A DNA stretch of 62,829 nt, filler included, from Nemertoderma westbladi (taxonomy: Eukaryota; Animalia; Xenacoelomorpha), in NCBI GenBank assembly GCA_032718475.1. It is 4 parts of 4 records of this genome, joined end to end, with 100 filler letters (N's around TTAATTAATTAA, not from the genome) between each part and the next. Parts side by side here need not be neighbours in the genome. Positions count along the whole stretch, not along the records: positions 23,812 to 49,004 come from JAUCBJ010005347.1; 3 more parts are not named here. The stretch is one strand, 5' to 3'. Within the stretch, counting starts at the first letter, position 1, and each line of letters opens with the position of its first letter. The notes below the pieces were generated by a model. It made no database searches, had not been told where the DNA came from, and saw only the letters and a program-made list of their open reading frames with translations. Shown one piece after another: positions 7,039-49,104 of this stretch. The translations under genes and the position numbers were made by a program.

Positions 7039-7192
7039 ATACTTATGCAGCATAATGTATCCCAGTAATCCCGAATATATATGTAGGATATAAATAAATT
7101 CCCAACCAAGAACTTAATAAATAAGCTTCCATACCCGCAATGTCACAATACTGCTATACTGCGACGATTAATCAGTTTACCTGATTTCAGTC

Positions 7193-7459
7193 TTGTTACT
7201 CGTTGTTACTCGTTGTTGTACTTTATTATTGCTCGTTGTTGATCATTGTTGCTCGTTGTTGATCATTATTGCTCGTTGTTGATCATTGTTGCTGGTTGTT
7301 GCTCATTGTTGGTCATTGTTGCTGGTTGTTGCTCATTGTTGGTCATTGTTGCTCATTGTTGATCATTGTTGCTGGTTGTTGCTCATTGTTGGTCATTGTT
7401 GCTCATTGTTGATCATTGTTGCTGGTTGTTGCTCATTGTTGGTCATTGTTGCTCGTTGT
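7193..7459 (-). repeat. Third array of the 10-bp satellite, inverted orientation
   Basis: (TTGTTGCTCA/TTGTTGCTCG)n is the reverse complement of the upstream arrays. Confidence 0.93.
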
Positions 7460-7831: not shown

Positions 7832-7931
7832 NNNNNNNNNNNNNNNNNNNNNNNNNNNNNNNNNNNNNNNNNNNNTTAATTAATTAANNNNNNNNNNNNN
7901 NNNNNNNNNNNNNNNNNNNNNNNNNNNNNNN
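7832..7931. other. Assembly gap linker (N44-TTAATTAATTAA-N44)
   Basis: 100-bp N run with a six-frame stop cassette; artificial. Confidence 0.98.
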
Positions 7932-12457: not shown

Positions 12458-12870
12458 AACTTTCTAATAACTCTCAATTTTTTTTCATTAGAACCTTGTA
12501 TGAATGATAGTACCGGTACCAACAGGCCCTCTGTAGTTAAACTTTCTAATAACTCTCAATTTTTTTCCCATTAGAACCTTGTATGAATGATAGTACCGGT
12601 ACCAACAGGCCCTCTGTAGTTAAACTTTCTAATAACTCTCAATTTTTTTTCCATTAGAACCTTGTATGAATTATAGTACCGGTACCAACAGGCCCTCTGT
12701 AGTTAAACTTTCTAATAACTCTCAATTTTTTTTCCATTAGAACCTTGTATGAATGATAGTACCGGTACCAACAGGCCCTCTGTAGTTAAACTTTCTAATA
12801 ACTCTCAATTTTTTTTCCATTAGAACCTTGTATGAATGATAGTACCGGTACCAACAGGCCCTCTGTAGTT
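12458..12870. repeat. Tandem repeat, ~82-83 bp unit, 5 copies
   Basis: Unit TTTCTAATAACTCTCAATTTTTTTCCATTAGAACCTTGTATGAATGATAGTACCGGTACCAACAGGCCCTCTGTAGTTAAAC. Confidence 0.95.
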
Positions 12871-12983
12871 ACTTATAATGTAATGACATCCAAAGGAACC
12901 AACATTATGACGCATTTTGTGATGATTAATTATCATGTCAACATATCATACTGTATGGATTTCTGCTGAGACGTCTATGTATA

Positions 12984-14150: not shown

Positions 14151-14768
14151 CTACTCCATATAATCGAAATCCTCAGGTATCCCAAACTGCTCGTCGACTA
14201 AACTAGCTTCGCAATTAAACTGGTTCTTTATCCATGACCTGAGAGAGAGAACATTATCCGTCCACCGATTTGTCCCTTCCTTGGCGACACCTGTCTCGTC
14301 GTCGACTGCTGCGAGCACTGCGGGATCACACTCCCTGTATAAAGCTAATTCCTTCTCCAAACTCCCCATCAATATCTCCTTATCCGATATTTCGCTGAGT
14401 AGTTTATTCCGCTTGACGCTGTCTTCCTTACCTACACTAGCCGCTGCTATTACCTTCAATAGGTTTTGTAGTTTCGCCTGGTTTTCCTCAACAGATTTTT
14501 CTAGTTCCTGTTTCTTTTGCTTCCTGATGTTCAGAGCTTTGCTCGGGAAAGCCCAAAAGTAATTGGAAGTTCCGATTTTATCGAACTCCAGCAGATTGTC
14601 GTCTACAAGCCCCTGAACAAGATCCTTCACAACCATAGAATTGATCCCCTTCTCTTTAGACGCAAGTTTTTCAACCTCTTTCAGCTGGAAAAACTCTTGT
14701 TTTTCGAGGAAGATAGACATAATACGAGAACGTTTCTCTTCCAAACTTAAACCCTTTCGTTTTGACAT
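14151..14768 (-). CDS. MND1: Meiotic nuclear division protein 1, uninterrupted CDS, 205 aa
   Basis: MSKRKGLSLEEKRSR...FFQLKEVEKLASKEKGI...DKIGTSNYFWAFPSKA...TNRWTDNV...FGIPEDFDY; ATG at 14768. Confidence 0.97.
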   Translation of the reverse strand: MSKRKGLSLEEKRSRIMSIFLEKQEFFQLKEVEKLASKEKGINSMVVKDLVQGLVDDNLLEFDKIGTSNYFWAFPSKALNIRKQKKQELEKSVEENQAKLQNLLKVIAAASVGKEDSVKRNKLLSEISDKEILMGSLEKELALYRECDPAVLAAVDDETGVAKEGTNRWTDNVLSLRSWIKNQFNCEASLVDEQFGIPEDFDYME

Positions 14769-15883: not shown

Positions 15884-17770
15884 ATGAACACGAAACAGCT
15901 CTCTTCCGGTGTTTTAAAAACAATAATCCATGGGGGAGAAAGTCCATCCAACCCGGTTGTTCAGTTACTGGGGCTAAAGAAGATTGGTGGTCCGGGACAG
16001 GCGGGACCCAACGACCGTTGGAGACTACTGGTCTCGGACGGTCTCTACCAGTACTCGTCGGCTATGATAGCAACCCAACTGAACGACCACGTCACCAACG
16101 GTCTCTTAGAAACCAACACCGTCATGAAGATGGATAAATACGTTTGTAACACCGTCGGTCAGGGAGACAACATGAAGAAAGTTCTAATTATTCTGGAATA
16201 TTCCATGGTCATTCCCGGGAAAGAAACCGGGAAAATCGGGAATCCAACTAATCTACCGAGCGGCGGTCCCCCACCTCCGCAGTCGGCGGTGTCGCCACAG
16301 CAACCTCGACAACCGCTGACCACGACGCAACCTCCGCAACGGACCGTCTCCAGCGGCGGCTTCTACGGGGCCCCAAAGCAGGGAGCGACAGATAGCTACC
16401 GTGGCAACCAATCGAGCGGATACCCCGGCAACCAACCGAGTGCCTACCAACCCGCCACACCGGCATCCAGCGTTATCCCCATCGCGGGATTGAACCCCTA
16501 CCAATCCCGATGGACGATCCGTGCTCGCATAGAAACCAAAGGATCCGTGCGCAACTACAGCAACGCGCGTGGCGACGGACGGTTGTTTAACGTGACGTTT
16601 ATCGACGGAAGCGGCGAGATTCGAGCGACCGGATTCAACCAGGAAGTCGATAAATTCTACGACCTTCTGGAACCCAACCGCGTCTACGAGGTATCCGGAC
16701 TCCAAGTTAAACCCGCGAACAAACAATTCAACAACCTAAAGAACGATTACGAACTTACTTTTAACGCGAACAGCGTAGTCACGGTAGCAGACGATGATAA
16801 ATCCATACCGGCTTTGAAGCTCGACTTCGTAAAAATCGCAGAAATCGATAAACTTGCGGCGCAATCCAACGTAGATCTCCTAGCCGTTGTTAAACAGGTC
16901 GGGGAGTTAACTTCCGTAGTCGGGAGACAATCCAACAAGGAGGTGAAGAAGCGGGACGTTCAGTTGGTCGACGATTCGTCTACTTCGGTTCAGTGCACGT
17001 TGTGGGGGTTGGAAGCGGAGCAGTTCGAGGGATCGGGGAACCCAGTGGTCGCGTTTAAAGGGGTCCGGGTATCGGATTGGAACGGGAAGTCGTTGAGTTT
17101 AATGGGCGGGGGTTCGATGTACGTGAACCCGGACGTTGTGGAGGCGCATCGGTTGCGGGGCTGGTGGGATACGGTGGGAGTGGGGGTCACTGTCTGGGGG
17201 AATCTCAGCGGGGGGATGGGAGGAGGGGGGGCCGAAGGCGGAACGCCCTGGAAACCCATCGCGGCGATAAAGGAGGAGAAATTGGGGTTGGATAAAGCGG
17301 ATTGGTTGAGCGTGGTCGGGACTGTGGTCTACTTCCGCAGGGAGAATTGTCTGTACCAGGCGTGCCCGCAGGACGGTTGCAATAAGAAGTTAGTGGATCA
17401 GCAGAACGGGTTCTATAGATGCGAGAAGTGCAACCAGGAGTACAACGAGTTCCGTTACCGACTCATCCTCGGCTGTAACATCGCGGATTACTCAGACAAC
17501 CAATGGATCACGTGCTTCCAGGACTCCGCCGAGACCATTCTCGGAGTCCCAGCAGCCGAGGTCGGGAGACTACGGGAGGCAGACCCCCAAGGCTTCGAGA
17601 ACATATTCGCTAAGGCCAACTTCCGAACGTATCAGTTCAAACTGAAGGCGGTGTTGGAGAATTACAACGACGAACAGCGGCTAAAATGTGTCGCGATGAA
17701 CGTGAAACCAGTTGATCCGGTGGAATACGGGCGGAAGTTGTTGGGAGAACTGAAAGAGTTACTCGGTTAA
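15884..17770 (+). CDS. RPA1: Replication protein A 70 kDa subunit, uninterrupted CDS, 628 aa
   Basis: N-terminal OB fold (RWRLLVSDG), P/Q linker, DBD-A (LNPYQSRWTIRAR, DGSGEIRATGFN), DBD-B (CTLWG), DBD-C zinc ribbon (YQACPQDGCNKK...RCEKC); first ATG at 15884. Confidence 0.98.
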   Translation: MNTKQLSSGVLKTIIHGGESPSNPVVQLLGLKKIGGPGQAGPNDRWRLLVSDGLYQYSSAMIATQLNDHVTNGLLETNTVMKMDKYVCNTVGQGDNMKKVLIILEYSMVIPGKETGKIGNPTNLPSGGPPPPQSAVSPQQPRQPLTTTQPPQRTVSSGGFYGAPKQGATDSYRGNQSSGYPGNQPSAYQPATPASSVIPIAGLNPYQSRWTIRARIETKGSVRNYSNARGDGRLFNVTFIDGSGEIRATGFNQEVDKFYDLLEPNRVYEVSGLQVKPANKQFNNLKNDYELTFNANSVVTVADDDKSIPALKLDFVKIAEIDKLAAQSNVDLLAVVKQVGELTSVVGRQSNKEVKKRDVQLVDDSSTSVQCTLWGLEAEQFEGSGNPVVAFKGVRVSDWNGKSLSLMGGGSMYVNPDVVEAHRLRGWWDTVGVGVTVWGNLSGGMGGGGAEGGTPWKPIAAIKEEKLGLDKADWLSVVGTVVYFRRENCLYQACPQDGCNKKLVDQQNGFYRCEKCNQEYNEFRYRLILGCNIADYSDNQWITCFQDSAETILGVPAAEVGRLREADPQGFENIFAKANFRTYQFKLKAVLENYNDEQRLKCVAMNVKPVDPVEYGRKLLGELKELLG

Positions 17771-19620: not shown

Positions 19621-20460
19621 CTACAATAAGAACTGGTATGTACAATCATCCCATTGCATCTCCCCGCAATAATCTCGATCCTTACATTCCGTTCTAATGC
19701 TGCGGTCTATGTAATCAACCTGGTTGTCCCAGTCCACCAGTACAACGGTAGACGATGTCGTACCGTACCTCCCGAACGGCGTGTCACAGGCCGCCACGTG
19801 GATGCTATTAATATCTTCATATAATCTCGGTTCCAATACCTCGTGCCCGTATTTAGTAGAGTTTCCCAAAATAACAAGTAACATTTTTATAAATTTAGTT
19901 TTATCTACGGCTTCTGGGTGACTGAGAGAATCCGAAAATAAGCTCCTTCCCACTTTCAGTTTAGTCCAGGGGGTGTCTAGACTCGAATTACTTAAACCGT
20001 GGGTTTCGCCAGGTTCCAGTTGAATTACTTCGTTATACTTGTTGCCATAATAGGATGCAGTTACCGGGCAACGAGCAGCTCCGATATCCATAGCAACTAT
20101 ATTGAACCCACTATGTGGAGAATCCACCTCGAAGTTCTTTAGATCCTCGCAATACTCGCTCGGTGATTGGTTGCCAAGCAGGTAGGTAGGGACTAGTGTT
20201 CCGCGGGGGAGCAGCATCTGGGGTCCTGCGGACCAGTTGGTTAAGAAGGAGAGACGTTTCACCGGTTCTGTACAAAGGCCTAACCACGTGCCGCCTTCCC
20301 GGCCTTCCGTGCGGTCCTGGCCCGCCAGGATTGGATGATTATCCCACCAATGGACGGCCGCGCATGGTCGAGAGAAATACTCATCCCGATTAAAAGCCAA
20401 TACCAACTTATAGGGGAAGTAGGCGGGCGAAGTGCCAATGTGGAACCAGGAAATACACAT
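19621..20460 (-). CDS. TANGO2: TANGO2 / NRDE-family protein, uninterrupted CDS, 279 aa
   Basis: MCI start, NRDEY motif, GGTWLG, RGxLV, GFN, HGLSNSSLDTPWxK, YGTTSSTVVLVD. Confidence 0.93.
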   Translation of the reverse strand: MCISWFHIGTSPAYFPYKLVLAFNRDEYFSRPCAAVHWWDNHPILAGQDRTEGREGGTWLGLCTEPVKRLSFLTNWSAGPQMLLPRGTLVPTYLLGNQSPSEYCEDLKNFEVDSPHSGFNIVAMDIGAARCPVTASYYGNKYNEVIQLEPGETHGLSNSSLDTPWTKLKVGRSLFSDSLSHPEAVDKTKFIKMLLVILGNSTKYGHEVLEPRLYEDINSIHVAACDTPFGRYGTTSSTVVLVDWDNQVDYIDRSIRTECKDRDYCGEMQWDDCTYQFLL

Positions 20461-20711
20461 TGTACTGGCCTAGGTAAGGTACCGGCAAACCGGTACGGTA
20501 CGGAAGCTACAGGCCTAGGTAAGGGATATCAATAATAATTATTTTAATTAACATTACAATAAATTCAATTAAGCCTACCAAGTTGTTCTGTGTGAAAGTG
20601 GAATACGTCCTAGCCCTTTCATTTACAATGGTTTCCAGGTAACAAATCTAATTTACAAAGGTTTTTCCGAAGCCTTAGTCTCCCAAGGAGCAGGTTACAG
20701 GGTTCCCCGGC

Positions 20712-20998
20712 TTTAGATCCTAGAGCACCTTAGATCCTGAACGAACTTAGATCTTGGGTGAACTTAGATCCTTACCAATCGAACTTAGATCATTTCTTAT
20801 AGGAACTTAGATCCTTCCCATACGCGCTTAGATCCTTCCCATACGAACTTAGATCCTTCCCATACGAACTTAGATCCTTTCCCATACGAACTCAGATCCT
20901 TCCCATACGAACTCAGATCCTTCCCTTACGAACTTTAGACCCTTCCCATACGAACTTAGATCCTACCCATACGAAACTTATATCCTCAACATACGAAC
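20712..20998 (+). repeat. Left subterminal array, ~21-bp unit GAACTTAGATCCTTCCCATAC
   Basis: Directly visible, about 12 copies. Confidence 0.9.
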
Positions 20999-21589: not shown

Positions 21590-22261
21590 ATACGAGCTAA
21601 GATCCTACCGACTAAATTAGCAACGAATTAGCTATTAATTTGCAAATTAAATCACCGCACCAATACTAATGTCTTCCTATCATTGTATTACAGTACTACA
21701 GTAATTGACCTTTTTAATTAGGACAAAACAGCAGGGGCATGTCTTCAAAACAAAGAGGTTATTCTAATAGCGTTGTACAAACACATACAGAGTTAATGAT
21801 ATACAGTAGCGATACTTATGTATGTCAATATATAATATAAAAGTTGATATCAATGAACCCCTGCTGCCCTGCTGTTGCCAACTAACTGTACTCTATGTAT
21901 ATGCACATTAACATTAATTTATGAACGAAGTCAAACTTTATTTCCCTACACTTGAATATATTTTATGACAGTAATTAATATTATACATAATAAGTTATCA
22001 AATCAAATTCATCTCCTCATTCTTTCATTCTCAGTATAATAATAATAACTACTGTATAAACTTTCAAGACGTACTATAAAAGACCATCTGGTGGCCGACA
22101 CTTTAGGGCCAGTTTTTCCTACGATTAATTTTATAACTGCTAATAATTGTAATAACTTTTGTTAACGGTACATTTAAAATTATTAAAGTTATTTAGTAAG
22201 TAGTAAAAAATTAAACATAGGAAAAACTGGTCCAAAGTTTCCTTGTTAAAGTTCAACCAGA

Positions 22262-23120
22262 TAGGATCTAAGTTCACCTAGTTAGGATCTAAGTTCACCG
22301 AGTTAGGATATAAGTTCACCTAGTTAGGATCTAAGTTCACCTAGTTAGGATCTAAGTTCACCTAGTTAGGATCTAAGTTCACCGAGTTAGGATATAAGTT
22401 CACCTAGTTAGGATCTAAGTTCACCTAGTTAGGATCTAAGTTCACCTAGTTAGGATCTAAGTTCACCGAGTTAGGATCTAAGTTCACCGAGTTGGGATCT
22501 AAGTTCACCTAGTTAGGATCTAAGTTCACCTAGTTAGGATCTAAGTTCACCGAGTTAGGATCTAAGTTCACCTAGTTAGGATCTAAGTTCACCGAGTTGG
22601 GATCTAAGTTCACCGAGTTAGGATCTAAGTTCACCTAGTTAGGATCTAAGTTCACCGAGTTAGGATCTAAGTTCACCGAGTTAGGATCTAAGTTCACCTA
22701 GTTAGGATCTAAGTTCACCGAGTTGGGATCTAAGTTCACCGAGTTAGGATCTAAGTTCACCGAGTTGGGATCTAAGTTCATCTAGTTAGGATCTAAGTTC
22801 ACCTAGTTAGGATCTACTTTCACCTAGTAAGGATCTAAGTTCACCTAGTTAGGATCTAAGTTCACCTAGTTAGGATCTAAGTTCACCGAGTTGGGATCTA
22901 AGTTCACCGAGTTAGGATCTAAGTTCACCGAGTTAGGATCTAAGTTCACCTAGTTAGGATCTAAGTTCACTTAGTTGGGATCTAAGTTCACCTAGTTAGG
23001 ATCTGAGTTTACCTAGTTAGGATCTAAGTTCACCGAGTTAGGATCTAAGTTCACCCAGCTAGGATCTTTGTTCGCAAAGATCTAAGTTCATCAAAGTCAG
23101 GCCTTGCAGGATCTAAGTTC
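22262..23120 (-). repeat. Right subterminal array, 21-bp unit AGTTAGGATCTAAGTTCACC(T/G), ~38 copies
   Basis: Directly visible; core is the reverse complement of the left array core. Confidence 0.96.
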
Positions 23121-23711: not shown

Positions 23712-23811
23712 NNNNNNNNNNNNNNNNNNNNNNNNNNNNNNNNNNNNNNNNNNNNTTAATTAATTAANNNNNNNNNNNNNNNNNNNNNNNNNNNNNNNNN
23801 NNNNNNNNNNN
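23712..23811. other. Assembly gap linker
   Basis: N run with TTAATTAATTAA. Confidence 0.98.
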
Positions 23812-23828
23812 AATCAATGACAGGTACA

Positions 23829-24426
23829 ACTACTACTACTACTACTAGGATCGGCATGCTGCATTGCAGCTGCATTTTTAAGAATGCTGTGCCGGCTTGT
23901 CGACAAAATTGCGCCGCCACAACTCCCTATCACCATCATCTGCATCTTCAAGGCCAGTGTCCTTTAAGATGCGTCTCAAGAAAGTGACGGACTGTCCACC
24001 ATGCTTATTCACTCCATGAGGCTGCCAAAGTACAAGATTATGCAATGGCTGGTCCTCACGGCGAAAGCAATGTCCTGCAAAGCGGAGGCGATTTTGTTCT
24101 AGTGTCAAGCTTGGGGGAACCAATGATACACCTCCAATGTTATATAGTGTTTGGTTAGAGATGTGTGCATTGTACTTGACACAATGAACCCGGCGTAGCA
24201 TTCTTGTGAATGTGCCATCCAGAGATGTGGTGTCCTCAGCAGTTAGAGCCCAGCATGGACTCCCATAGAGGAGTACTGGGACTACTGCTGCTCTAAATAA
24301 TCGGACCTTAAGTTTCCGATTAATTGTCGGTGACTTCCAAATCCTTGAAAGCCTATTCAAGGCTACCCATGCCTTTCCCTTACGTATTCGAAGGTCCTCA
24401 CATGACTTCCGGATCCATGATCCCAT
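23829..24426 (-). mobile_element. RTE-clade LINE 3' fragment with (TAG)n tail
   Basis: GSWI...RKGKAWVAL...LKVRLFRAAVVPVLLYG...RLRFAGHCFR; near-identical to 47777-48375; (ACT)n tail on plus strand. Confidence 0.9.
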
Positions 24427-25488
24427 CATCATCACGTACAACAAGTGACAGCAAAATAAATATACAACCCATTCTAGTACCTATATTCACAATTGTTCGG
24501 ATCACGAGAAATTTGAATAGAAAACAAAAATTACAGTATTACAGTAGCAGCTGTAGGGTAGACACCGATTCCGGTAATTAACTACATACAATACTGCAAT
24601 ATAAAACCAATACCGGTCCGGTTCGTGTCGCAATATCAACAATAGGTCGATAGAATTTCATTAAATTTCAAATTCCCCCCTACTCAATAAGAATTTCCAA
24701 ATCCAACCAATGAATGGGTTGGCCTCTTTGGAGCGCTGGGTGCAGTAGTGTGGTGCACTTGGTGTGTGGTCATGAGGAGGTCAAACTGAGTGGATGACTG
24801 GGTTATCAGGGGTGGAGGATGGCTGTCTCCATTTGGGAGTCCTGCAGGTCTGGGCGACAAGCAATAATGGTACTGAGTTTTTATGAACGACCCCTGGGGG
24901 CTAATATTAATAATTATTTGATAATAATAATTTGAAAAAACAGGTTACAAAATTGTGTTTAGTTTATTGTTTTGGTTAAAATAACGTGCCACCTACTCCT
25001 TTCCCTAAATTGAGAATATACCATTGAGAATATTATTTCGCCAAGGCGGGTTTTGCGTCCAGTTACCCCCCCCCCCCCCCCCCTTACTCATTGGTTGATA
25101 AGACCCAAACTTTTATTTAAACAACGCTTTTTAGGTTTGGATACAGTCCACGACATTTATGGTTCAACATACCGACTTTGAATGCCCGTATCTTATAGAG
25201 CCACTTATTATATGGCGACATTTTTTTCGTAACCAAGCTGAATAATTGCAGATTCTTAAAATCTGATTGATTGGACACAATTTTGTAGAATATTAGTTAT
25301 GAACTGAATTTTACTAAAAGGGACAATTTTCGTAATTTATAACAAAAATTATATTTGCTGCTTTCCCAATCCCACTCTCTCTCTCTAATTATCCCAGGTG
25401 CTAAATGTTTAGTGCTAAATTTAGTAGCTAATTAAATGCTTTTACAGGAAATATATAACACTATTACCATTTAAGACTGAATTAATAG

Positions 25489-25624
25489 TTATTTAATTGT
25501 GTTACTGAGTGCAACTTTGCATATCTGAATCCGTGTTTCCATATTCTTTAGGGTACGTGCAGCCCGCCGTGTTTTCTTGCTGTTAACATCTGTGTAGGTT
25601 GTTTGAATGTGGTTTCCAAGCTTT
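25489..25624 (-). CDS. HAUS4: Candidate last exon (exon 5) of HAUS4-like gene
   Basis: Acceptor TTTATTTTGATTCTTAAATTTTAAG, phase-compatible with the exon 4 phase-2 donor; encodes KLGNHIQTTYTDVNSKKTRR...IQICKVALSNTIK*, only weakly similar to the HAUS4 C-terminus. Confidence 0.45.
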
Positions 25625-25965
25625 CTTAAAATTTAAGAATCAAAATAAACTTTATTGCAAGTCGTCGAGTAGAAGCAGAATTATCCAATGTGATACATTT
25701 TGGTAACATTTTGGCTACTATTTGTGTTTCAGGCAGTATCAAGCAAGCAGTCGGCCGAAGCCGGAGGCGACTCGAAAGCTCCACTTTCGATAGCTGCTAC
25801 CCGATGGTAGGGGTGGGTGCTACTCTTATCCCAAGAATTGCTCCCAGTTATTTAACTGGTACTCATTCAGACAATATAAACTTTGAAATTAATTGAGATA
25901 CTGTATTCAATTTACTTAAAGTAATGTATTTTACTTTCGAGCGGCGCGGAATGCGGTATTATTAG

Positions 25966-28900
25966 GAGTCCACCTAGCGTCCACTAACCGTATTTGTCTG
26001 CGTCCACCTAGCGTCCACTAACCGTATTTGTTTGAGTCCACCTAGCGTCCACTAACCGTATTTGTTTGAGTCCACCTAGCGTCCACTAACTGTATTTGTC
26101 TGCGTCCACTAACCGTATTTGTTTGAGTCCACCTAGCGTCCACTAACCGTATTTGTTTGAGTCCACCTAGCGTCCACTAACCGTATTTGTTTGAGTCCAC
26201 CTAGCGTCCACTAACCGTATTTGTTTGAGTCCACCTAGCGTCCACTAACTGTATTTGTCTGCGTCCACTAACCGTATTTGTTTGAGTCCACCTAGCGTCC
26301 ACTAACTGTATTTGTCTGCGTCCACTAACCGTATTTGTTTGAGTCCACCTAGCGTCCACTAACCGTATTTGTTTGAGTCCACCTAGCGTCCACTAACTGT
26401 ATTTGTCTGCGTCCACTAACCGTATTTGTTTGAGTCCACCTAGCGTCCACTAACCGTATTTGTTTGAGTCCACCTAGCGTCCACTAACCGTATTTGTTTG
26501 AGTCCACCTAGCGTCCACTAACCGTATTTGTTTGAGTCCACCTAGCGTCCACTAACCGTATTTGTTTGAGTCCACCTAGCGTCCACTAACCGTATTTGTT
26601 TGAGTCCACCTAGCGTCCACTAACCGTATTTGTTTGAGTCCACCTAGCGTCCACTAACCGTATTTGTTTGAGTCCACCTAGCGTCCACTAACCGTATTTG
26701 TTTGAGTCCACCTAGCGTCCACTAACCGTATTTGTTCTGCGTCCACTAACCGTATTTGTTTGAGTCCACCTAGCGTCCACTAACCGTATTTGTTTGAGTC
26801 CACCTAGCGTCCACTAACCGTATTTGTTTGAGTCCACCTAGCGTCCACTAACCGTATTTGTTTGAGTCCGCCTAGCGTCCACTAACCGTATTTGTTTGAG
26901 TCCACCTAGCGTCCACTAACCGTATTTGTTTGAGTCCACCTAGCGTCCACTAACCGTATTTGTTTGAGTCCACCTAGCGTCCACTAACCGTATTTGTTTG
27001 AGTCCACCTAGCGTCCACTAACCGTATTTGTCTGCGTCCACTAACCGTATTTGTTTGAGTCCACCTAGCGTCCACTAACCGTATTTGTTTGAGTCCACCT
27101 AGCGTCCACTAACCGTATTTGTTTGAGTCCACCTAGCGTCCACTAACCGTATTTGTTTGAGTCCACCTAGCGTCCACTAACCGTATTTGTTTGAGTCCAC
27201 CTAGCGTCCACTAACCGTATTTGTTTGAGTCCACCTAGCGTCCACTAACCGTATTTGTTTGAGTCCACCTAGCGTCCACTAACCGTATTTGTTTGAGTCC
27301 ACCTACCGTATTTGTTTGAGTCCACCTAGCGTCCACTAACTGTATTTGTCTGCGTCCACTAACCGTATTTGTTTGAGTCCACCTAGCGTCCACTAACCGT
27401 ATTTGTTTGAGTCCGCCTAGCGTCCACTAACCGTATTTGTTTGAGTCCACCTAGCGTCCACTAACCGTATTTGTTTGAGTCCACCTAGCGTCCACTAACC
27501 GTATTTGTTTGAGTCCACCTAGCGTCCACTAACCGTATTTGTCTGCGTCCACTAACCGTATTTGTCTGCGTCCACTAACCGTATTTGTTTGAGTCCACCT
27601 AGCGTCCACTAACCGTATTTGTTTGAGTCCGCCTAGCGTCCACTAACCGTATTTGTTTGAGTCCACCTAGCGTCCACTAACCGTATTTGTTCTGCGTCCA
27701 CTAACGTATTTGTCTGCGTCCACTAACCGTATTTGTTTGAGTCCACCTAGCGTCCACTAACCGTATTTGTTTGAGTCCGCCTAGCGTCCACTAACCGTAT
27801 TTGTTCTGCGTCCACTAACCGTATTTGTTTGAGTCCACCTAGCGTCCACTAACCGTATTTGTTTGAGTCCACCTAGCGTCCACTAACCGTATTTGTTTGA
27901 GTCCGCCTAGCGTCCACTAACCGTATTTGTTTGAGTCCACCTAGCGTCCACTAACCGTATTTGTTTGAGTCCACCTAGCGTCCACTAACCGTATTTGTTT
28001 GAGTCCACCTAGCGTCCACTAACCGTATTTGTCTGCGTCCACTAACCGTATTTGTTTGAGTCCACCTAGCGTCCACTAACTGTATTTGTCTGCGTCCACT
28101 AACCGTATTTGTTTGAGTCCACCTAGCGTCCACTAACCGTATTTGTTTGAGTCCACCTAGCGTCCACTAACCGTATTTGTTTGAGTCCACCTAGCGTCCA
28201 CTAACCGTATTTGTCTGCGTCCACCTAGCGTCCACTAACTGTATTTGTCTGCGTCCACTAACCGTATTTGTCTGAGTCCACCTAGCGTCCACTAACCGTA
28301 TTTGTTTGAGTCCACCTAGCGTCCACTAACCGTATTTGTTTGAGTCCACCTAGCGTCCACTAACCGTATTTGTCTGCGTCCACCTAGCGTCCACTAACTG
28401 TATTTGTCTGCGTCCACTAACCGTATTTGTTTGAGTCCACCTAGCGTCCACTAACCGTATTTGTTTGAGTCCACCTAGCGTCCACTAACCGTATTTGTTT
28501 GAGTCCACCTAGCGTCCACTAACCGTATTTGTTTGAGTCCACCTAGCGTCCACTAACTGTATTTGTCTGCGTCCACTAACCGTATTTGTTTGAGTCCACC
28601 TAGCGTCCACTAACCGTATTTGTTCTAGCGTCCACTAACGTATTTGTCTGCGTCCACTAACCGTATTTGTTTGAGTCCACCTAGCGTCCACTAACCGTAT
28701 TTGTTTGAGTCCACCTAGCGTCCACTAACTGTATTTGTTTGAGTCCACCTAGCGTCCACTAACCGTATTTGTTTGAGTCCACCTAGCGTCCACTAACTGT
28801 ATTTGTCTGCGTCCACTAACCGTATTTGTTTGAGTCCACCTAGCGTCCACTAACCGTATTTGTTTGCGTCCACCTAGCGTCCACTAACCGTATTTGTTGA

Positions 28901-30226
28901 GTCCACTAGCGTCCACTAACCGTATTTGTTTGAGTCCACCTAGCGTCCACTAACTGTATTTGTTTGAGTCCACCTAGCGTCCACTAACCGTATTTGTTTG
29001 AGTCCACCTAGCGTCCACTAACTGTATTTGTCTGCGTCCACTAACCGTATTTGTCTGAGTCCATCTAGCGTCCACTAACCGTATTTGTTTGAGTCCACCT
29101 AGCGTCCACTAACCGTATTTGTTTGAGTCCACCTAGCGTCCACTAACCGTATTTGTCTGCGTCCACCTAGCGTCCACTAACTGTATTTGTCTGCGTCCAC
29201 TAACCGTATTTGTTTGAGTCCACCTAGCGTCCACTAACCGTATTTGTTTGAGTCCACCTAGCGTCTACTAACTGTATTTGTCTGCGTCCACTAACCGTAT
29301 TTGTTTGAGTCCACCTAGCGTCCACTAACTGTATTTGTCTGCGTCCACTAACCGTATTTGTCTGAGTCCATCTAGCGTCCACTAACCGTATTTGTTTGAG
29401 TCCACCTAGCGTCCACTAACCGTATTTGTTTGAGTCCACCTAGCGTCCACTAACCGTATTTGTCTGCGTCCACCTAGCGTCCACTAACTGTATTTGTCTG
29501 CGTCCACTAACCGTATTTGTCTGCGTCCACTAACTGTATTTGTCTGCGTCCACTAACCGTATTTGTTTGAGTCCACCTAGCGTCTACTAACTGTATTTGT
29601 CTGCGTCCACTAACCGTATTTGTCTGAGTCCATCTAGCGTCCACTAACCGTATTTGTTTGAGTCCACCTAGCGTCCACTAACCGTATTTCTTTGAGTCCG
29701 TCTAGCGTCCACTAACCGTATTTGTTTGAGTCCACCTACCGTCCACTAACTGTATTTGTTTGAGTCCACCTAGCGTCCACTAACCGTATTTGTCTGCGTC
29801 CACTAACCGTATTTGTTTGAGTCCACCTAGCGTCCACTAACTGTATTTGTCTGCGTCCACTAACCGTATTTGTTGCGTCCACTAACCGTATTTGTTTGAG
29901 TCCACCTAGCGTCCACTAACTGTATTTGTCTGCGTCCACTAACCGTATTTGTTTGAGTCCACCTAGCGTCCACTAACCGTATTTGTTTGAGTCCACCTAG
30001 CGTCCACTAACCGTATTTGTTTGAGTCCACCTAGCGTCCACTAACTGTATTTGTCTGCGTCCACCTAGCGTCCACTAACTGTATTTGTCTGCGTCCACTA
30101 ACCGTATTTGTTTGAGTCCACCTAGCGTCCACTAACTGTATTTGTCTGCGTCCACCTAACGTCCACTAACCGTATTAGTTGGAGTCCATCTAACGTCCAC
30201 TAACCGTATTTGTTTGAGTCCACCTA
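25966..30226. repeat. Satellite, 34-bp unit GAGTCCACCTAGCGTCCACTAACCGTATTTGTTT (with 23-bp short variants), >120 copies, derived from the HAUS4 exon 4/intron 4 junction
   Basis: Directly visible; the terminal unit overlaps the coding exon end (GGLKQIR) and the GTTAGT donor. Confidence 0.97.
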
Positions 30227-30404
30227 TTGTTTTATGATTGTACGTGTCGTAACGTAACTCCAGCTCTAATTTCCGTAATTTACTACAGAGGGCGTCGGTG
30301 CGAACTTTCAACCAATCAGCGATCACGGTTATCTGTTCCCCCTGTACATACACAATCTCCATGGTTATCACATTTTCCAGAACTCTTATATAGTCCATGG
30401 CAAC
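30205..30404 (-). CDS. HAUS4: HAUS4-like exon 4
   Basis: TTCCAG|VAMDYIRVLE...ADWLKVRTDALCSKLRKLELELRYDTYNHKTIGGLKQIR|GTTAGT; resembles the HAUS4 segment YLEVKCGAMILKLRMEELKILSDTY...HRLIR as remembered. Confidence 0.8.
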
Positions 30405-30490
30405 CTGGAACACAATACAAACAGATAAAATAAAATATCCACTCATTCCTTATAGCCAGATAACTAAAACGCTGCGAGAGCGGCGTGAAC

Positions 30491-31480: not shown

Positions 31481-31865
31481 GAAATGTATGAAAGTAAAAA
31501 CCTTTTTCTCACTTCGTTATTTGTTATCCGTCCAAGCTGATGCTTGGACGGATAAATTTAATATAACGAATAAATTTATACGAACGAACGTAGTGAGTGA
31601 GTGCAAACAAAGATTCGAGGATTCCACAAAATTGTATCTTTACTCATAACGGACTTTTATTATATTCCTACATATGGAAGGATCGAAGTGAAACAAAGGA
31701 AAACTGATTTTCTTAAAAAATTTCACTTTCAACTAAATTTGGCATAATTTCCTAAAACTGACAGACGTTCCTATTTGTTCGAGATAAAACTATATTTACA
31801 AGGACTTTAGGATTCTGTATAAAATCCTGACTGCAGCACTAACTCACACTCACCACCTGAATTAC

Positions 31866-32114
31866 CTTGAAGTATTGCTGAAGCAGACGGGACTGATTAA
31901 TTCTTTTGAATCTCAGGTTTTTAGTGAGTTGCTCCACATCACTGCGATCTCTGTTAACTAGTCCGGCTAGCTTGGCCACCCGTAGACTCCTCCCAGCGCC
32001 AGCACTGTTGTCGTTGGTCGCTGATTGGGATACATAGAAATCGACAAACTTGTGGGATTTCTGTTGTAACATGGCCTCAAACATTGGGATGGTTTGAAGA
32101 ATGACATCTGGATT
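31866..32114 (-). CDS. HAUS4: HAUS4-like exon 3
   Basis: TAG|NPDVILQTIPMFEAMLQQK...LRVAKLAGLV...LLQQYFK|GTAATT, phase 0/0; an alternative in-phase donor GTGAGT would end the exon at 31854. Confidence 0.7.
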
Positions 32115-32446
32115 CTACTTGGTGAAGAAAAATTGAAAAGTAACAGTCATACGCTGACCAATCGTTTTAACTTACGCACAATTTGAAAAAAAAACCGTGA
32201 ATTTTTAATATAAATTGTTGCATTATGTCTACGACATGGGTATAGTCATCATCGTAAAAAGATATATTAGCCTAATTCAAAAATTGTATTGCATGGATAG
32301 AAACATTTGAAACTCATGTATGTCCGGACTGTATATGCACAGACATAACTCACAGAAATACATTTAGTTAGCCTGAAGAAGACCTAGTGTATTGTTAATT
32401 TCTACAACATAATTCGGACCTCTTCGAATGAGGTACCGGGACTCAC

Positions 32447-32680
32447 CTCGTTAAATTTAGTATAATCCCTCAGTTGATCCAACGACACTCCATACGGAAT
32501 ATTTGTGTCACCGGAATATTCTTCGATACATTCCGCAGCAGTCAGGGTTTGTTCCAACCAACGAACTACGCTCTCATCTAGTCCACTTGACTTCGATTCA
32601 AACAACATCTGTTTAATACACTCCAGCAGGATACAATTTTCCAAGTATTGTTGTTTCCGGCTGTCCAGTAGAGAATGTGA
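32447..32680 (-). CDS. HAUS4: HAUS4-like exon 2
   Basis: TTTCAG|SHSLLDSRKQQYLENCILLECIKQMLFE...WLEQTLTAAEC...TKFNE|GTGAGT, phase 0/0. Confidence 0.75.
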
Positions 32681-33009
32681 CTGAAAAAGAATGTGGACAG
32701 TAATTAATATGTCCAGATAGGGGGGCTTCAAAATTCATATCTCGCATGAAACTGTAACCATTGGTTAAAATAAAACTTGTTACCTGTTACCTTCTTCTAG
32801 CCCTGAATTGATAAATTACTTTGATAATTCGTTGAGACAATGTACTATATCGCTGAGATGGAATTTGCGTGAATTTTCTTTAACTGAGTCAATAACGCTG
32901 TCCTGTCCTGATTTGCATGTTCTTCGCATTTAATAACATTACCGAGTTTAGCGGCATGTACTAAGCTCTTGATTAATGCCCGATTCAATGATATAGGGTA
33001 TCGTCTTAC

Positions 33010-33117
33010 CTTTGACAACATTGAGGCAGCTTTGGCACTGCTACATCCCTGCTGATTATCAAGTCGTTTCCGAATCTCCACCAATAGGTTACCAAACGAA
33101 TCATTGCGTCTAGACAT
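33010..33117 (-). CDS. HAUS4: HAUS4-like (augmin subunit 4) coding exon 1
   Basis: MSRRNDSFGNLLVEIRKRLDNQQGCSSAKAASMLSK|GTAAGA; similar to HAUS4 FSKLLLNLSQHVDESGLS as remembered. Confidence 0.65.
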
Positions 33118-36100
33118 TGCCAATCGTTTCAATAAGTATATATAGAAAGGAAAGAGTAAAGAGTCAGGCCTATCACCAATCACGGTTTACAGTTTGGTCA
33201 GTTGGTTAGGGTTGTTAGGCAGGCATTTAGGTCTCGACTATCGACCCCAATAAAAAGTGTACAACTGCAGCACTGCAGCAGGCTACCGGTACGGATCACC
33301 TGCAGCTACGCTACAACCACACGCACACACCATATCAATCATATCATGATCATGAACAAAACTCACACAAATTGGTAGGCCTAATTTCCAGTTCGATTTT
33401 TGTGTGGATACTGGACTACCTGCAGTACAGCAGTACAGTACAGACAGTCTAGACTAAGAGATTACAGCCAGAGAGCGCAGATTACATCGCCACCCCACCG
33501 ACAAACCGCGATCAACCGGGAGTATTTTCCACTCCAACTGTCCGAACTCCATTAGCATTACGCACAGACAAAACTAACGGAACGACTGTAGGAGTAGGTA
33601 CAGTCTGACAATACCAGTGTCAGCCAGTACCCAGGTACCGGTGCGGTACTTGATGTAGGCGCACTATCAGTCAGGCAGTAGCAGTGTATGTCATTGTCAA
33701 TTTCAATAATTTGAATTTCCCCCCAAAATATCCAGCCTGCAAGCTGGCTATAAGAAGACCGTCTATAAGACAACAAAACCGAAAAAAACTAAATCTTAAT
33801 TCCGTTTCTGTGTTAGACCGAAGCGTAAATATGAACAAATATTTAACCATATCCAAATTTCCCATAAAAAGTCGACCGAGAAGTGAAATCCTGGTATTCT
33901 TCACATGGGCGATCCTGGCATCACTATGAAGCAACCAATTTAATATAAGCATTCTCTCGATAATGGTTTGGTTAATAATACAGTATAATGGAGGTAGAGA
34001 GTGGGGGTGTCATGTCAATATAATCGTCCAGTATCAATATAAGTCTGCCCGACAGCTGTTATGATTATAGCTGACTGATTGTTTAGTAGAATATTGGTTT
34101 GAACGAAGACAGAGTTAAAGCTGCACATATACATACTTGACATCCCAACATGTAGAACACGTTCACTTCCAAGCCAATATCAAAGTGCACGCACACACAC
34201 AGACAAACAAATAAACTGGCAGCAAGAAGCTCTAACGATCTCTAATTTATAATAAATTAAACAATAAATTATTGTTTTAGATCGACAATTTTCAATTAAT
34301 TTATTGAATATTGTTGTCTAATTTTATAAGGAAATGTACAGGCCAGACACCGTAACATAATTTTTTTCGATACTTTTTTTTCCACATGCTGGGGTTGAGC
34401 TGCGTCGATTGATATAACTTTCATTGACGGACGAGCTATTGCTTCGGAGGAGTTCATCTCTGCCTTGCAATGTAAAAAGACCGTAAGTCGCATTTTTCCA
34501 AAATTCACTTTTTCACTTTTTCTGGGTCTAAAAAATGCGCTCTATCTAATGGTATAATCGAGAACACCGTATCTAAGTAAGTAAAATTACCCTGAAGTCA
34601 AAATATTAATGAAAAGTGAAAAATAATCACGTAGAAAAATTTCCCACCCCCAATTGCGTAGGTTTAAGTTTAAAATTAGTAATTTACGGAGATTTTAAAC
34701 CAACAATCTGAAGGCAAACACTAATTTGCGTTTTACTCGAAATGACTTTTTGTGACTTGCGGTCTTTTTACATTCCACGGCAGATTAATATATTATTCGT
34801 ATATCATATAATAAACGTACAGTAGAGGTAAAAATACGATTTGTGGAATAAAATTAACGAATTGTAAGAAAACAGTTGTATTCTTTCTTATGACTCCTTG
34901 ATGTTTAATTGATAACTCCTCCCGCTCGGCAAGTTATACATATCGGGTTCATCCGGAAAAAGCAAATTTGTTTTTCGTAAATAAATATAATTGTATAAAA
35001 TTATATATGTACAGTATGTACAGGTATACCTTTTTATAAAAGTCCTCGTATCTTCGAACCCCAAATAATGCTGCAATCCGTTAGTATTGGAAATATATAA
35101 ATTAAAAGGGATGACTGGAATTATTACTACAGTTAAAAAAGTTGAAAATGAATTTATTTAAATTCCAATATGTGTTATAATAGTTGGATTGAAATTATAT
35201 ATATTAATATTATATTGTATTAAGATATTAACGACTAATTCTTCGATATATACACATTGAATCTCAAATAATCCAATATATACAACAACACATTAAATAT
35301 ATAGGGTAATTGTTATGTTCTCATTCACTTCTGTTATTATTCATAAGTAATTTCAAAAATTCGAAGATTTTCATTACATAAAGCAAATGCATAAAATTTC
35401 CTAAGTAACGAATATTACAGTACAAAATTATATCCCATTCAAAAAGGTTAACACATTCGATTCCTAAATTATACATAATAGTAAATTAGATATTACATTA
35501 ATGTAGACCTTCCTCTATATTTGACTAATCTCTACTTGAAAAATCAATTAGTATTCTGTAGTTCAAAGCTTTGAGAAAAAAGTTAGAAACTAACTACAAA
35601 AATAAATTCGGTAGACAAACAGTAGTTCAGACTCCTGTAAGAACAACGGACAACGTGAGGTTTTATCGCGGCGCTATAAACGGCGCTTCTTTGTTATTTA
35701 TAAAATATTAACTGAACTTCCGTTCAGTTATGATGAGTTTCACTCACTTATACCTTCGCGCATTCGTAATACACACATTGTATTGTAATAAATGTAAGAA
35801 TTATAATTCATATTATGGCCTACATAAGCCTCTCGTAATTTTACACAATAATATTGGTAATAGTGCCAATAAATCAGTAAAATTTAAGATTAAGTTTCTT
35901 ATAATATAAGGTCTACTGCAGTCAATAACTCATAGTCGCACGTATTTAACACTATTTGACCGCAGAAGCAGTATTGGGAAGTATTTTTAATGAGCTTTTA
36001 ATATACAGTACAGTAATTAATGTAGGCCTATTATATAATCCAGTACATCAGGTTTGTGGGTGATTTAATTTTAAGTGTAGCCTACAGTTTACAGTAGTAG

Positions 36101-36984: not shown

Positions 36985-37548
36985 ATACTATTACTATACT
37001 TTTTTGCTTACATTGCTATACATTATGCTTACATTACTATACTTTTTTGCTTACATTGCTATACATTATGCTTACATTACTATACTTTTTTGCTTACATT
37101 GCTATACATTATGCTTACATTACTATACTTTTTTGCTTACATTGCTATACATTATGCCTACATTACTATACTTTTTTGCTTACATTGCTATACATTTTGC
37201 TTACATTACTATACTTTTTTGCTTACATTGCTATACATTATGCTTACATTACTATACTTTTTTGCTTACATTACTATACTTTTTTGCTTACATTGCTATA
37301 CTTTTTTGCTTACATTGCTATACATTATGCTTACATTACTATACTTTTTTGCTTACATTGCTATACATTATGCTTACATTACTATACTTTTTTGCTTACA
37401 TTGCTATACATTATGCTTACATTACTATACTTTTTTGCTTACATTGCTATACATTATGCTTACATTACTATACTTTTTTGCTTACATTGCTATACATTAT
37501 GCTTACATTACTATACTTTTTTGCTTACATTGCTATACATTATGCTTA
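36985..37548. repeat. Intronic minisatellite, 43-bp unit TACATTGCTATACATTATGCTTACATTACTATACTTTTTTGCT, ~13 copies
   Basis: Directly visible; explains the three overlapping low-complexity ORFs at 36922-37625. Confidence 0.95.
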
Positions 37549-38296
37549 TTACCTTGCTAATACTCCAAAAAATCTATAAAAATTTAATATGCGGATCACT
37601 TTCAATTTCATGTTTTTTTTCGTAGCAACATGAATTTTACATAGCAATAAGGTAACTATTTGGTGTGGTTTTCCCCAAATTTGGTACAGAAATTATTCTT
37701 TAGTCCACTGACTATCGATAGACTTTCGACCAATTTAGTTTCCAGAGCAACGGAAATTTGTCTAACCATATTTATCTTACCATTATTTGGCTAGTGCCAT
37801 ATACTGTACAGTAGTATGTAGTGCAGTAATGCAGTAGTGCAGTAGTGTAGATTATTTACACAACTTCGCTACTAAACAGGGGCATGTAACCTCGTCCATC
37901 GAATTTTTCGTTCTCAAAATAAGACTATTTTCTCCAAAAAATATAACCGTTATATCATACACTGTCGATTTTAAACCAAACAAATAATTAAATTACACCT
38001 AAAATCCAATACTGCAAAGGTAATTTCATTATGTGAAAAATCGACGCTCACATAGTGGAAATCATTAAATTTCCTTGTTGTGAATTGTATAATTTATTTT
38101 TGAATCGACTATTAGGCTGCGGTAATAACGATGTTGTCTGGCAAAGAGATAAGTAGCAGACTAGACTCATAACAAGCAAATTATTTGTAAATTATTATTT
38201 AGCCAAGACCTAGGCATATAGGCCTACATAGTTAATTCAATAGATTGTAACTTTTCAATCTCCTAATATAAGTTATAGGATTATGATTTACAGTAC

Positions 38297-41721: not shown

Positions 41722-42305
41722 AGAAACCATTAGTTTTCATAATACATAAAATTTAGTTAAAAATACATACTGTATAACTCTTCATCAACTTTATACTGTA
41801 CATACAATATAATTATAACATACCTAATCATATTAGATTTATCATACAGTTCTACAGTTACCGTATCATTACTGCTATAGACCTACACTGGGCTCGTAGT
41901 CAGAATTCCGAATGCCTAAGTACTGAAGTATCGCTATATTAATATTACAATTACTGTATTTACATCTGAATGTCATTAATCATACTTATGTGTTTCCCTT
42001 TCTATTATATTGTACCCTTATCATTAGTATTTGTTAACCTACCTATATCTGATGAAGCACCGCCAGTCGGTACGAAATATATTATAATACTGTTATAATC
42101 TCGCAACAAATTGAATTATTATTTATACAAAGTTCTTTATGAAAAACATTGTGGTATCTTATCTTGTGGTACAGAATGTATCTTGTTATTGTCGCAGTGA
42201 GTTATGATATGACTATTTTTAAGTTGCAATTATTTCATATTATACTGTTTTAAACACTCCCTTACAACACAGCACAATATCTTGCAAATTAAACAAAATA
42301 CCATC

Positions 42306-49004: not shown

Positions 49005-49104
49005 NNNNNNNNNNNNNNNNNNNNNNNNNNNNNNNNNNNNNNNNNNNNTTAATTAATTAANNNNNNNNNNNNNNNNNNNNNNNNNNNNNNNNNNNNNNNN
49101 NNNN
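49005..49104. other. Assembly gap linker
   Basis: N run with TTAATTAATTAA. Confidence 0.98.

What the first reader, a model, noticed from the sequence alone, without database searches (positions are those of the whole stretch)
25966..30226. 4.3-kb satellite born from an exon/intron junction: >100 copies of the HAUS4 5' splice site
Seen: on the gene strand the 34-bp unit reads AG-GTGGACTCAAACAAATACG|GTTAGT-GGACGCT, i.e. the last ~21 nt of exon 4 (GGLKQIR) plus its donor. The first unit is the real exon end (30205), so the intron starts with >120 near-identical competing donors, each also preceded by TAG|GT. Read-through hits a stop at 30156, and the second donor would shift the frame by 34 nt. 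Inference: the spliceosome must pick the first donor over many identical decoys closer to the acceptor, or the array tunes expression (NMD, U1 loading, recursive splicing). It is also an unusually traceable satellite origin.
Basis: partly seen in the sequence, partly recalled or inferred. Interest (0 to 1): 0.82.

Follow-up and report, generated by a model that had tools for sequence, protein, structure and literature searches.

The report
Splice-donor minisatellite in HAUS4 intron
The end of one exon of an invertebrate's HAUS4 gene, splice signal included, is repeated about 136 times (4.3 kb) into the next intron, yet the one spliced transcript seen is cut at the first signal, so this is likely a harmless example of a repeat type already known from human and lancelet genes.

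Summary
The array is real: 25966-30226, 137 donor-like sites, main unit = last 22 nt of HAUS4 exon 4 + first 12 nt of intron 4. One public run that behaves as RNA gives a 1,883-nt contig joining exon 3 to exon 4 and leaving at the first donor, 30205. It continues into a HAUS4-like last exon that is absent from the window, so the proposed acceptor at 25624 is wrong. The intron position is shared by 8 of 8 informative HAUS4 loci from other animals, none with a junction repeat: the array grew on an old junction. No internal donor keeps the frame and no copy has an acceptor-type pyrimidine tract, which argues against recursive splicing or a useful isoform. The kind is known: human F7 intron 7 VNTR (PMC1557585) and lancelet 'mirages' (PMC3087553). 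This scan already noted 14 such findings on other pieces of the same genome, mostly larger (unchecked notes). Verdict: new member of a known kind. What stays open is why this genome makes so many.

The parts
33010..33117 (-). HAUS4 exon 1, coding part (ATG at 33117, 36 codons, phase 0)
   Evidence: canonical donor, in frame with exons 2-4; no Pfam hit on its own. Exons 1-3 (591 nt) plus a 46-nt leader account for the 637 nt before exon 4 in the X4 contig (inferred from record positions).
32447..32680 (-). HAUS4 exon 2 (78 codons)
   Evidence: AG/GT ends, in frame; no Pfam hit on its own.
31866..32114 (-). HAUS4 exon 3 (83 codons)
   Evidence: PF14735 40-110, E 7.7e-4; its 3' end is the loose end joined to exon 4 in the X4 contig.
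30205..30404 (-). HAUS4 exon 4 (200 nt, ends in phase 2 of an Arg codon); its last 22 nt are the template of the repeat
   Evidence: PF14735 115-177, E 3.3e-8; covered exactly by the X4 contig, 30204-30410; 22-nt identity to the unit.
30199..30207 (-). Authentic 5' splice site of intron 4 (cut between 30205 and 30204)
   Evidence: X4 contig leaves the window here; same position and phase in 8 of 8 informative HAUS4 loci of other animals.
25966..30226 (-). Tandem array of 34-bp and 23-bp units, 137 donor-like sites; a degenerate last unit runs about 10 nt further, to about 25955
   Evidence: repeat units present at high depth in DNA runs of two samples.
30165..30173 (-). Second donor (first intron base 30170), same 9-mer as the real one; its use would add 34 nt and shift the frame
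30156..30158 (-). In-frame stop met on read-through, inside the second unit
25489..25624 (-).
   Evidence: No HAUS4 Pfam hit; 0 of 11 residues in register with two relatives against 3 of 11 for the transcript's continuation; no BLASTP alignment to P0123.
23712..23811 (.). Scaffold join (44 N, 12-nt linker, 44 N) that ends the HAUS4 contig next to a LINE fragment; the true exon 5 likely lies in or beyond this gap
   Evidence: exon 5 absent from the window. Its location is inferred, not shown.

Best explanation
This is a minisatellite made of the last 22 bases of HAUS4 exon 4 and the first 12 bases of its intron, repeated about 136 times at an old, conserved splice junction; the one spliced transcript seen uses the first donor, and the array likely arose by local slippage and likely persists as tolerated intron filler. 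Steps. Shown: unit anatomy; first donor used in one assembled transcript; intron position older than the array; every internal donor would give a truncated protein. Inferred: a first small duplication across the junction, perhaps helped by a motif shared by the exon end and the intron start 23 nt apart; growth and homogenisation by slippage or unequal exchange, with the 23-bp units made by 11-bp deletions between two internal copies of that motif; first-donor choice by the 5'-to-3' rule shown for human F7, helped by the lack of any acceptor in the array, so that no copy can be defined as an exon. Inferred reason such arrays survive: copies added downstream of a donor leave the coding exon and the first donor intact.
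For: Anatomy. First donor used: X4 contig of 1,883 nt, depth 1133, covers 30204-30410 only, with exon 3 on one side and a new HAUS4-like sequence on the other; no X4 contig was laid on the repeat part 30150-30197. That continuation reads R-D-I-L-D-K, in register with R-S-E-L-D-K in relatives' last exon. Old junction: 8 of 8 loci that reach this position (7 distinct sequences; of 18 loci returned, 1 was a high-GC false hit and 9 do not hold this exon end) have GT at the same place and phase, and TRF finds no repeat at it. No useful internal donor: only the real donor keeps the frame before the stop at 30156. No acceptors in the array. Ordinary tandem-repeat turnover: the exact main unit rises from 11 to 17, 21 and 26 of 34 units by quarter away from the exon, and both end units are degenerate, as described for mirages (PMC3087553, passage). 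Seed similarity between exon 4 end and intron start: 514 of 20,000 shuffles reach the score, against 19,988, 13,479 and 6,014 for exons 1-3. Precedent: F7, CBS, 6-16, lamin B2, PDGF (PMC1557585, abstract and passages); mirages do not disturb splicing (PMC3087553, PMC3902484, passages).
Against: One RNA-like run, as contigs: contigs drop rare variants, so minor use of donors 2, 3 and beyond is not excluded. That run is labelled 'DNA?' by guess; I read it as RNA because it skips intron 3 at canonical ends and holds 0.29 of the words where exons make up 0.40. In human 6-16 and CBS two pseudo-sites are used besides the real one (PMC1557585, introduction), so leakage is common in this class. The seed similarity is modest (about 0.026 for one of four junctions tried) and could be a product of the array rather than its cause. 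Plain slippage does not by itself explain why this genome would carry so many such arrays (unchecked notes). Array length rests on one assembly that shows small differences from all three DNA runs in the flank (25690, 25739).
Confidence: 0.75

Rival explanations
1. The array is a dosage device: a share of transcripts would use internal donors, be truncated or degraded, and array length or unit type would tune HAUS4 levels; or the many U1 sites would protect the long intron from early cleavage.
For: 107 internal copies carry the same 9-mer as the real donor. Donor 5 onward lies 76 nt or more past the stop, far enough for NMD under the recalled mammalian rule. Pseudo-sites are used in human 6-16 and CBS (PMC1557585, introduction); repeat length tracks splicing at many human loci (PMC10078293, abstract start and passages). 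Weakened donors (A at -1) are commonest near the exon: 11, 8, 2, 4 by quarter, which could reflect selection on leakage.
Against: No X4 contig carries repeat units. Donor 2, the main competitor, is not weakened. Donors 2 and 3 would give truncated protein without NMD if exon 5 is last, which is a cost, not a control. The array is absent at the same junction in 8 of 8 loci from other animals, though these are distant. The gradient of weak donors is also what neutral, polarised turnover gives, and units are not independent.
Confidence: 0.08
2. A process tied to splicing or transcription at exon edges (for example RNA-DNA hybrids, paused polymerase or RNA-templated repair at splice sites) would seed and amplify junction repeats across this genome, and the HAUS4 array would be one product; harmless, but not plain slippage.
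For: The array starts exactly at a conserved donor and grows only into the intron. The scan's notes list 14 findings of this kind on other pieces of the same genome, at donors and at acceptors, up to about 2,100 copies (unchecked, picked by readers for this very feature). The mechanism of mirage formation is called unclear in PMC3087553 (passage).
Against: No genome was available for an unbiased count. This window holds many other tandem arrays with no shown link to an exon edge, so the genome is repeat-prone in general. Survival bias (duplications starting in an exon survive only if they run across a donor into the intron) and reader bias could both produce the pattern. Local microhomology offers an ordinary seed here.
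Confidence: 0.12
3. The array is partly an assembly artefact or a dispersed satellite: the assembler inflated it or jumped inside it to another locus, which would explain why exon 5 is missing.
For: Exon 5 is absent from the whole window. The window is four contigs joined by artificial linkers. Depth ratios in sample S2 suggest 12-23 copies of a junction word that the assembly holds 60 times.
Against: Repeat units are present in DNA runs of two samples, and X2 and X3 contigs run from exon 4 into the first unit and stop where repeat words begin. In X1 the same word has a depth ratio of about 50 against 60 in the assembly (rough, X1 may be the source, and lower single-copy values in X1 would raise it to about 110), which fits one array and not thousands of copies. 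The unit matches a coding exon end at a conserved junction, and occurs nowhere else in the window. The missing exon is simply explained by the gap at 23712-23811.
Confidence: 0.05

Closest known systems
Human F7 intron 7 37-bp VNTR, with the 6-16 (25 pseudo-sites), CBS intron 13 (15-20 units), lamin B2 (10-15) and PDGF intron 4 (16-18) minisatellites (PMC1557585; abstract, section list and 12 passages seen)
   Same: First unit spans an exon-intron boundary; the donor is reiterated into the intron; the most upstream donor is the one used.
   Different: About 136 units against 5-25; the unit is mostly exon (22 of 34 nt) whereas F7 has 4 exonic nt of 37; two unit lengths; mechanism not tested here, and not a mammal.
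Amphioxus 'mirage' minisatellites in Adh3, globins BflGb6 and BflGb9, troponin C, PGBD5 (PMC3087553, 6 passages; PMC3902484, 1 passage)
   Same: Tandem copies of an exon-intron boundary in an invertebrate; normal splicing persists; inner units homogeneous, end units diverged; several genes in one genome.
   Different: Far more copies than the 3-6 units reported for BflGb6; here the intron position is ancestral, so the proposed intron-gain role does not apply; length instability not shown here.
Human splicing-associated tandem repeats (spl-TRs; PMC10078293, abstract start and 7 passages seen)
   Same: Tandem repeats near splice sites can alter splicing with length.
   Different: The passages seen do not describe reiterated donors; no length-splicing link was tested or seen here.

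Membership tests
Junction-spanning minisatellite (F7 intron 7 type; lancelet 'mirage') | First unit spans a real exon-intron boundary | tested here: met
   22 exon nt + 12 intron nt; boundary used in a spliced contig and conserved in 8 of 8 informative loci.
Junction-spanning minisatellite (F7 intron 7 type; lancelet 'mirage') | Head-to-tail copies reiterate the splice site in the intron | tested here: met
   137 donor-like sites, 108 identical 9-mers.
Junction-spanning minisatellite (F7 intron 7 type; lancelet 'mirage') | Normal mRNA is made from the most upstream donor | tested here: met
   One contig of one run; minor isoforms not measurable.
Junction-spanning minisatellite (F7 intron 7 type; lancelet 'mirage') | Length varies among alleles | tested here: inconclusive
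   Depth ratios about 50 (X1), 23 (X3), 12 (X2) for a word held 60 times in the assembly; X2 and X3 are one sample and differ twofold, and depth is not a copy number.
Junction-spanning minisatellite (F7 intron 7 type; lancelet 'mirage') | Downstream pseudo-sites work when the first is disabled | not testable with these tools
   Needs minigenes, as in PMC1557585.
Dispersed or large-block satellite DNA family | Many loci or very high genome-wide copy number | tested here: inconclusive
   No genome to search; unit absent elsewhere in the window and from metagenome contigs; depth ratios fit tens of copies.
Recursive splicing sites | AG|GT preceded by a pyrimidine tract | tested here: not met
   0 of 306 YAG sites exceed 53% pyrimidine or 27% T upstream; real acceptors 67-80% and 47-60%. 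The criterion itself is recalled.
Intron gain by tandem duplication of a splice site | Intron at a new, lineage-specific position | tested here: not met
   Same position and phase in 8 of 8 informative loci from other animals.
Regulated unproductive splicing coupled to NMD | Alternative site used at a regulated level and giving an NMD substrate | tested here: inconclusive
   No internal-donor contig seen; stop-to-junction distances 19, 53, 76 nt for donors 3, 4, 5; no raw reads or NMD-block data.

The most novel reading that the evidence does not exclude
This animal has a mutational process aimed at splice junctions that seeds and amplifies exon-edge repeats in many genes; the HAUS4 array is one product, small enough to span with single long reads, and selection is weakening the decoy donors nearest the exon while the main unit is kept identical to the coding exon end by sequence exchange.
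Probability: 0.15. Interest if true: 0.65.

Novelty: new member of a known kind. Interest (0 to 1): 0.2.

Why it matters
Alone it matters little: the kind and the first-donor rule are in print, and the same genome seems to hold much larger cases. Its value is as a clean data point. The junction is shown to be ancestral, the template exon is intact, the transcript is seen, and at 4.3 kb the array can be spanned by one long read, so it suits a test of donor leakage, allele length and unit turnover outside mammals. If an unbiased count showed that arrays in this genome start at splice junctions far more often than survival bias allows, that would link splicing to the birth of tandem repeats, a step that PMC3087553 calls unclear.

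Tried and rejected
No whole genome is held, so locus-specificity could not be tested by search. Run search: no RNA holder listed; 4 of 6 rows hold the stretch. Word-indexed homolog search with exon 4 found nothing among 12 candidates; the full HMMER scan gave 3 hits, 2 HAUS4-like and 1 unrelated leucine-rich-repeat protein, P0121, which I dropped. PDB: only human HAUS4 (7sqk_D) at E 0.92. Search for exon 5 in the window: 52 downstream minus-strand ORFs gave no HAUS4 Pfam hit; a 20-nt motif of the transcript's continuation with up to 3 mismatches gave 0 matches; short exact sub-motifs gave 0; a C-terminal profile from two relatives gave best E 1.0 among 2,661 ORFs while the N-terminal control found exon 4 at 3.6e-13; tblastn was too weak to count, since it found exon 3 only at E 8.8. 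Laying runs on 23812-26030: no contig bridged the far end of the array, 25884-25957 had no cover in any run, and X4 had no cover on the 25624 candidate; holes are common there and prove nothing. The unit found no exact match in metagenome contigs and no look-alike among earlier findings. Literature: seven searches ran; none returned a paper on genome-wide junction repeats in a xenacoelomorph or other non-chordate invertebrate, but the library lacks most subscription papers and no supplements were read. Rejected readings: exon 4 ending at the upstream TAG|GT (the transcript covers the exon to 30205); recursive splicing; intron gain by the array; a processed DNA copy as the source of the X4 contig (depth 1133 with no flanking intron cover on either side of the exon).
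Full report
Observation. On the gene (minus) strand it breaks into 136 intervals between donor motifs: 99 of 34 bp, 28 of 23 bp and 9 of other lengths; 75 are one exact 34-mer. There are 137 donor-like sites, 108 identical to the real donor 9-mer (itself included), 25 with A at position -1, and 4 other variants. The unit is the exon's last 22 nt plus 12 intron nt. The read-through stop (30158-30156) and the second donor at +34 nt are correct. The TAG|GT motif occurs 93 times, not before every donor, and matches only 4 of 9 positions of the recalled donor consensus against 6 for the real donor and 7 for the gene's other three donors.

Gene. Exons at 33117-33010, 32680-32447, 32114-31866 and 30404-30205 have AG/GT ends and join in frame. 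Exons 3 and 4 match Pfam HAUS4 at profile positions 40-110 and 115-177 of 235, so about 58 profile positions remain for a later exon. The host is an animal with no close relative among the hits: the neighbouring MND1 is 59% identical to a sea urchin protein and 55-56% to lancelet proteins. No whole genome is held.

Which donor is used. Four public runs hold the locus, all labelled 'DNA?' by guess. Run X4 holds 0.29 of the words of 31800-33200, where exons account for 0.40. Laid on 30150-30485, X4 gives one 1,883-nt contig of depth 1133 covering 30204-30410 only. Its loose end on one side is the end of exon 3 (31872-31901), so intron 3 is spliced out and the run behaves as RNA. On the other side it leaves at the first donor and continues R-D-I-L-D-K. 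No X4 contig was laid on the repeat part. This shows first-donor use; it cannot measure minor isoforms, since contigs drop rare variants and this is one run.

The acceptor. The continuation is not the 25624 candidate. In register with two HAUS4 relatives it shares 3 of 11 residues with each, the candidate 0 of 11, and it lines up with R-S-E-L-D-K at the start of the last coding exon in metagenome-derived animal loci. It is absent from the window: 0 matches for a 20-nt motif with up to 3 mismatches, and a C-terminal profile finds nothing better than E 1.0 among 2,661 ORFs while its N-terminal control finds exon 4 at 3.6e-13. The window is four contigs joined by N-linker-N blocks; the HAUS4 contig ends at 23812 beside a LINE fragment, so exon 5 most likely lies in or past that gap and intron 4 would be longer than 6.3 kb (inferred).

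Age of the junction. A scan of metagenome contigs gave 18 loci: 1 is a high-GC false hit, 9 do not hold the relevant exon end, and 8 (7 distinct) do. All 8 have GT after the first two bases of the same Arg codon, and TRF finds no repeat at that junction in any. In the 4 that hold the next exon, it carries the rest of the protein to the stop. So the array grew on an old junction and did not create the intron, and exon 5 is likely the last coding exon. These loci look like few lineages (7 of the 8 are 52-69 of 69 nt alike to each other), so this is a small number of independent witnesses.

Is the array real in DNA? Repeat units appear at high depth in X1, X2 and X3 (two samples), and X2 and X3 contigs run from exon 4 into the first unit and stop where repeated words begin. 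A word that the assembly holds 60 times has depth ratios of about 50 in X1, 23 in X3 and 12 in X2. The tool warns that depth is no copy number, X1 may be the source of the assembly, and X2 and X3 are one sample; the figures fit a single array of tens of units, perhaps shorter in the second sample, and do not fit a genome-wide satellite. All three DNA runs differ from the window at 25690 and 25739, so the rare 22-, 24-, 25- and 32-bp units may include consensus errors.

How it most likely works. Origin (inferred): the intron start resembles the exon sequence 23 nt upstream more than shuffles usually give (514 of 20,000; the other three donors 19,988, 13,479, 6,014), a modest sign of a slippage seed that could also be a product of the first duplication. 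The 34-mer holds two copies of that motif 11 nt apart, and the 23-bp units are what an 11-bp deletion between them yields (inferred). Turnover is polarised: the exact main unit makes up 11, 17, 21 and 26 of 34 units by quarter away from the exon, and the first two and the last units are degenerate (the permutation value of 1e-4 overstates this because units are not independent). Splicing (part shown, part inferred): the first donor is used; no copy has an upstream acceptor (0 of 306 YAG sites above 53% pyrimidine; real acceptors 67-80%), so no copy can be an exon or a recursive site. Any internal donor is a loss: only the real donor keeps the frame before the stop; the stop lies 19, 53 and 76 nt before donors 3, 4 and 5, so by the recalled mammalian rule donors 2 and 3 would give truncated protein and only later ones would feed NMD. 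This fits a tolerated passenger better than a control device.

Against this reading. Leakage is untested, and in two human genes of this class nearby pseudo-sites are used (PMC1557585, introduction). Weakened donors cluster near the exon (11, 8, 2, 4 by quarter), though donor 2 is intact. The main unit is identical to the exon over 22 nt while the two nearest copies differ from it at 4 of 34 positions each, a weak hint of recent expansion or exchange with the exon that I could not test.

Comparison with what is known. PMC1557585 (abstract, section list, 12 passages) describes minisatellites whose first unit spans an exon-intron boundary in F7, 6-16, CBS, lamin B2 and PDGF, and shows with 50 constructs that the most upstream donor wins. 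PMC3087553 (6 passages) and PMC3902484 (1 passage) describe lancelet 'mirages' that leave splicing intact, with an unclear origin. This array meets the three features of that class that I could test, with more copies. The scan's own notes list 14 distinct findings of this kind on other pieces of the same genome, most far larger; these are unchecked AI notes, selected for this feature, and I did not test their loci. Seven literature searches returned no paper on such arrays genome-wide in a non-chordate invertebrate; the library is incomplete.

Verdict. Observation confirmed, acceptor corrected, regulatory readings unsupported. New member of a known kind, interest 0.2. The bold reading, a junction-aimed repeat-making process in this genome, stays possible at about 0.15 and can only be tested genome-wide.

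Noticed in passing
window 7832-7931, 23712-23811, 49005-49104: Three identical scaffold joins (44 N, a 12-nt linker with stops in all frames, 44 N): the window is four contigs whose order and linkage are not shown, so gene neighbourhood across them is uncertain.
   Followed up: partly
window 8785-11697 (+), 14151-14765 (-), 15884-17770 (+), 19621-20469 (-): VPS18, MND1, RPA1 and TANGO2 each sit in one unbroken ORF, beside an intron-bearing HAUS4; MND1 and RPA1 are head to head about 1.1 kb apart. In exon 4 of HAUS4 an intron found in the relatives (after L-K-I-K/R) is also absent, hinting at heavy intron loss in this lineage.
   Followed up: partly
window 20760-20998 and 22249-23067: Two 21-bp arrays share a 12-bp core in opposite orientation about 1.3 kb apart, like the ends of a foldback-type element. 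Not classified.
   Followed up: no
window 12458-12871: Five copies of an 83-bp unit holding a T-run followed by an AG, an acceptor-like motif on the + strand, between the 3' ends of VPS18 and MND1. No exon was identified next to it; a possible second junction repeat.
   Followed up: no
window 36990-37552 (-): A 43-bp array (13 copies) inside an intron of a kelch-like gene begins at a donor-like motif that follows a possible 21-nt microexon. Speculative.
   Followed up: no
window 42216-44777 (+): An 853-aa ORF of repeated cysteine- and tyrosine-rich modules with weak DnaJ and RPT hits (E 0.0015 and 7.6e-10); function not examined.
   Followed up: no
window 503-3228, 6146-7039, 7193-7459: Long 10-bp arrays of one family, the last in opposite orientation to the first two.
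   Followed up: no
window 23812-24477, 24922-25069, 25736-25883: High-copy dispersed repeats in HAUS4 intron 4: a LINE fragment and two short elements with summed depths thousands of times above single-copy sequence.
   Followed up: partly
window 30250: One base differs between the window and the X4 transcript inside exon 4; X2 and X3 agree with the window. Different sample, so most simply an allele.
   Followed up: no
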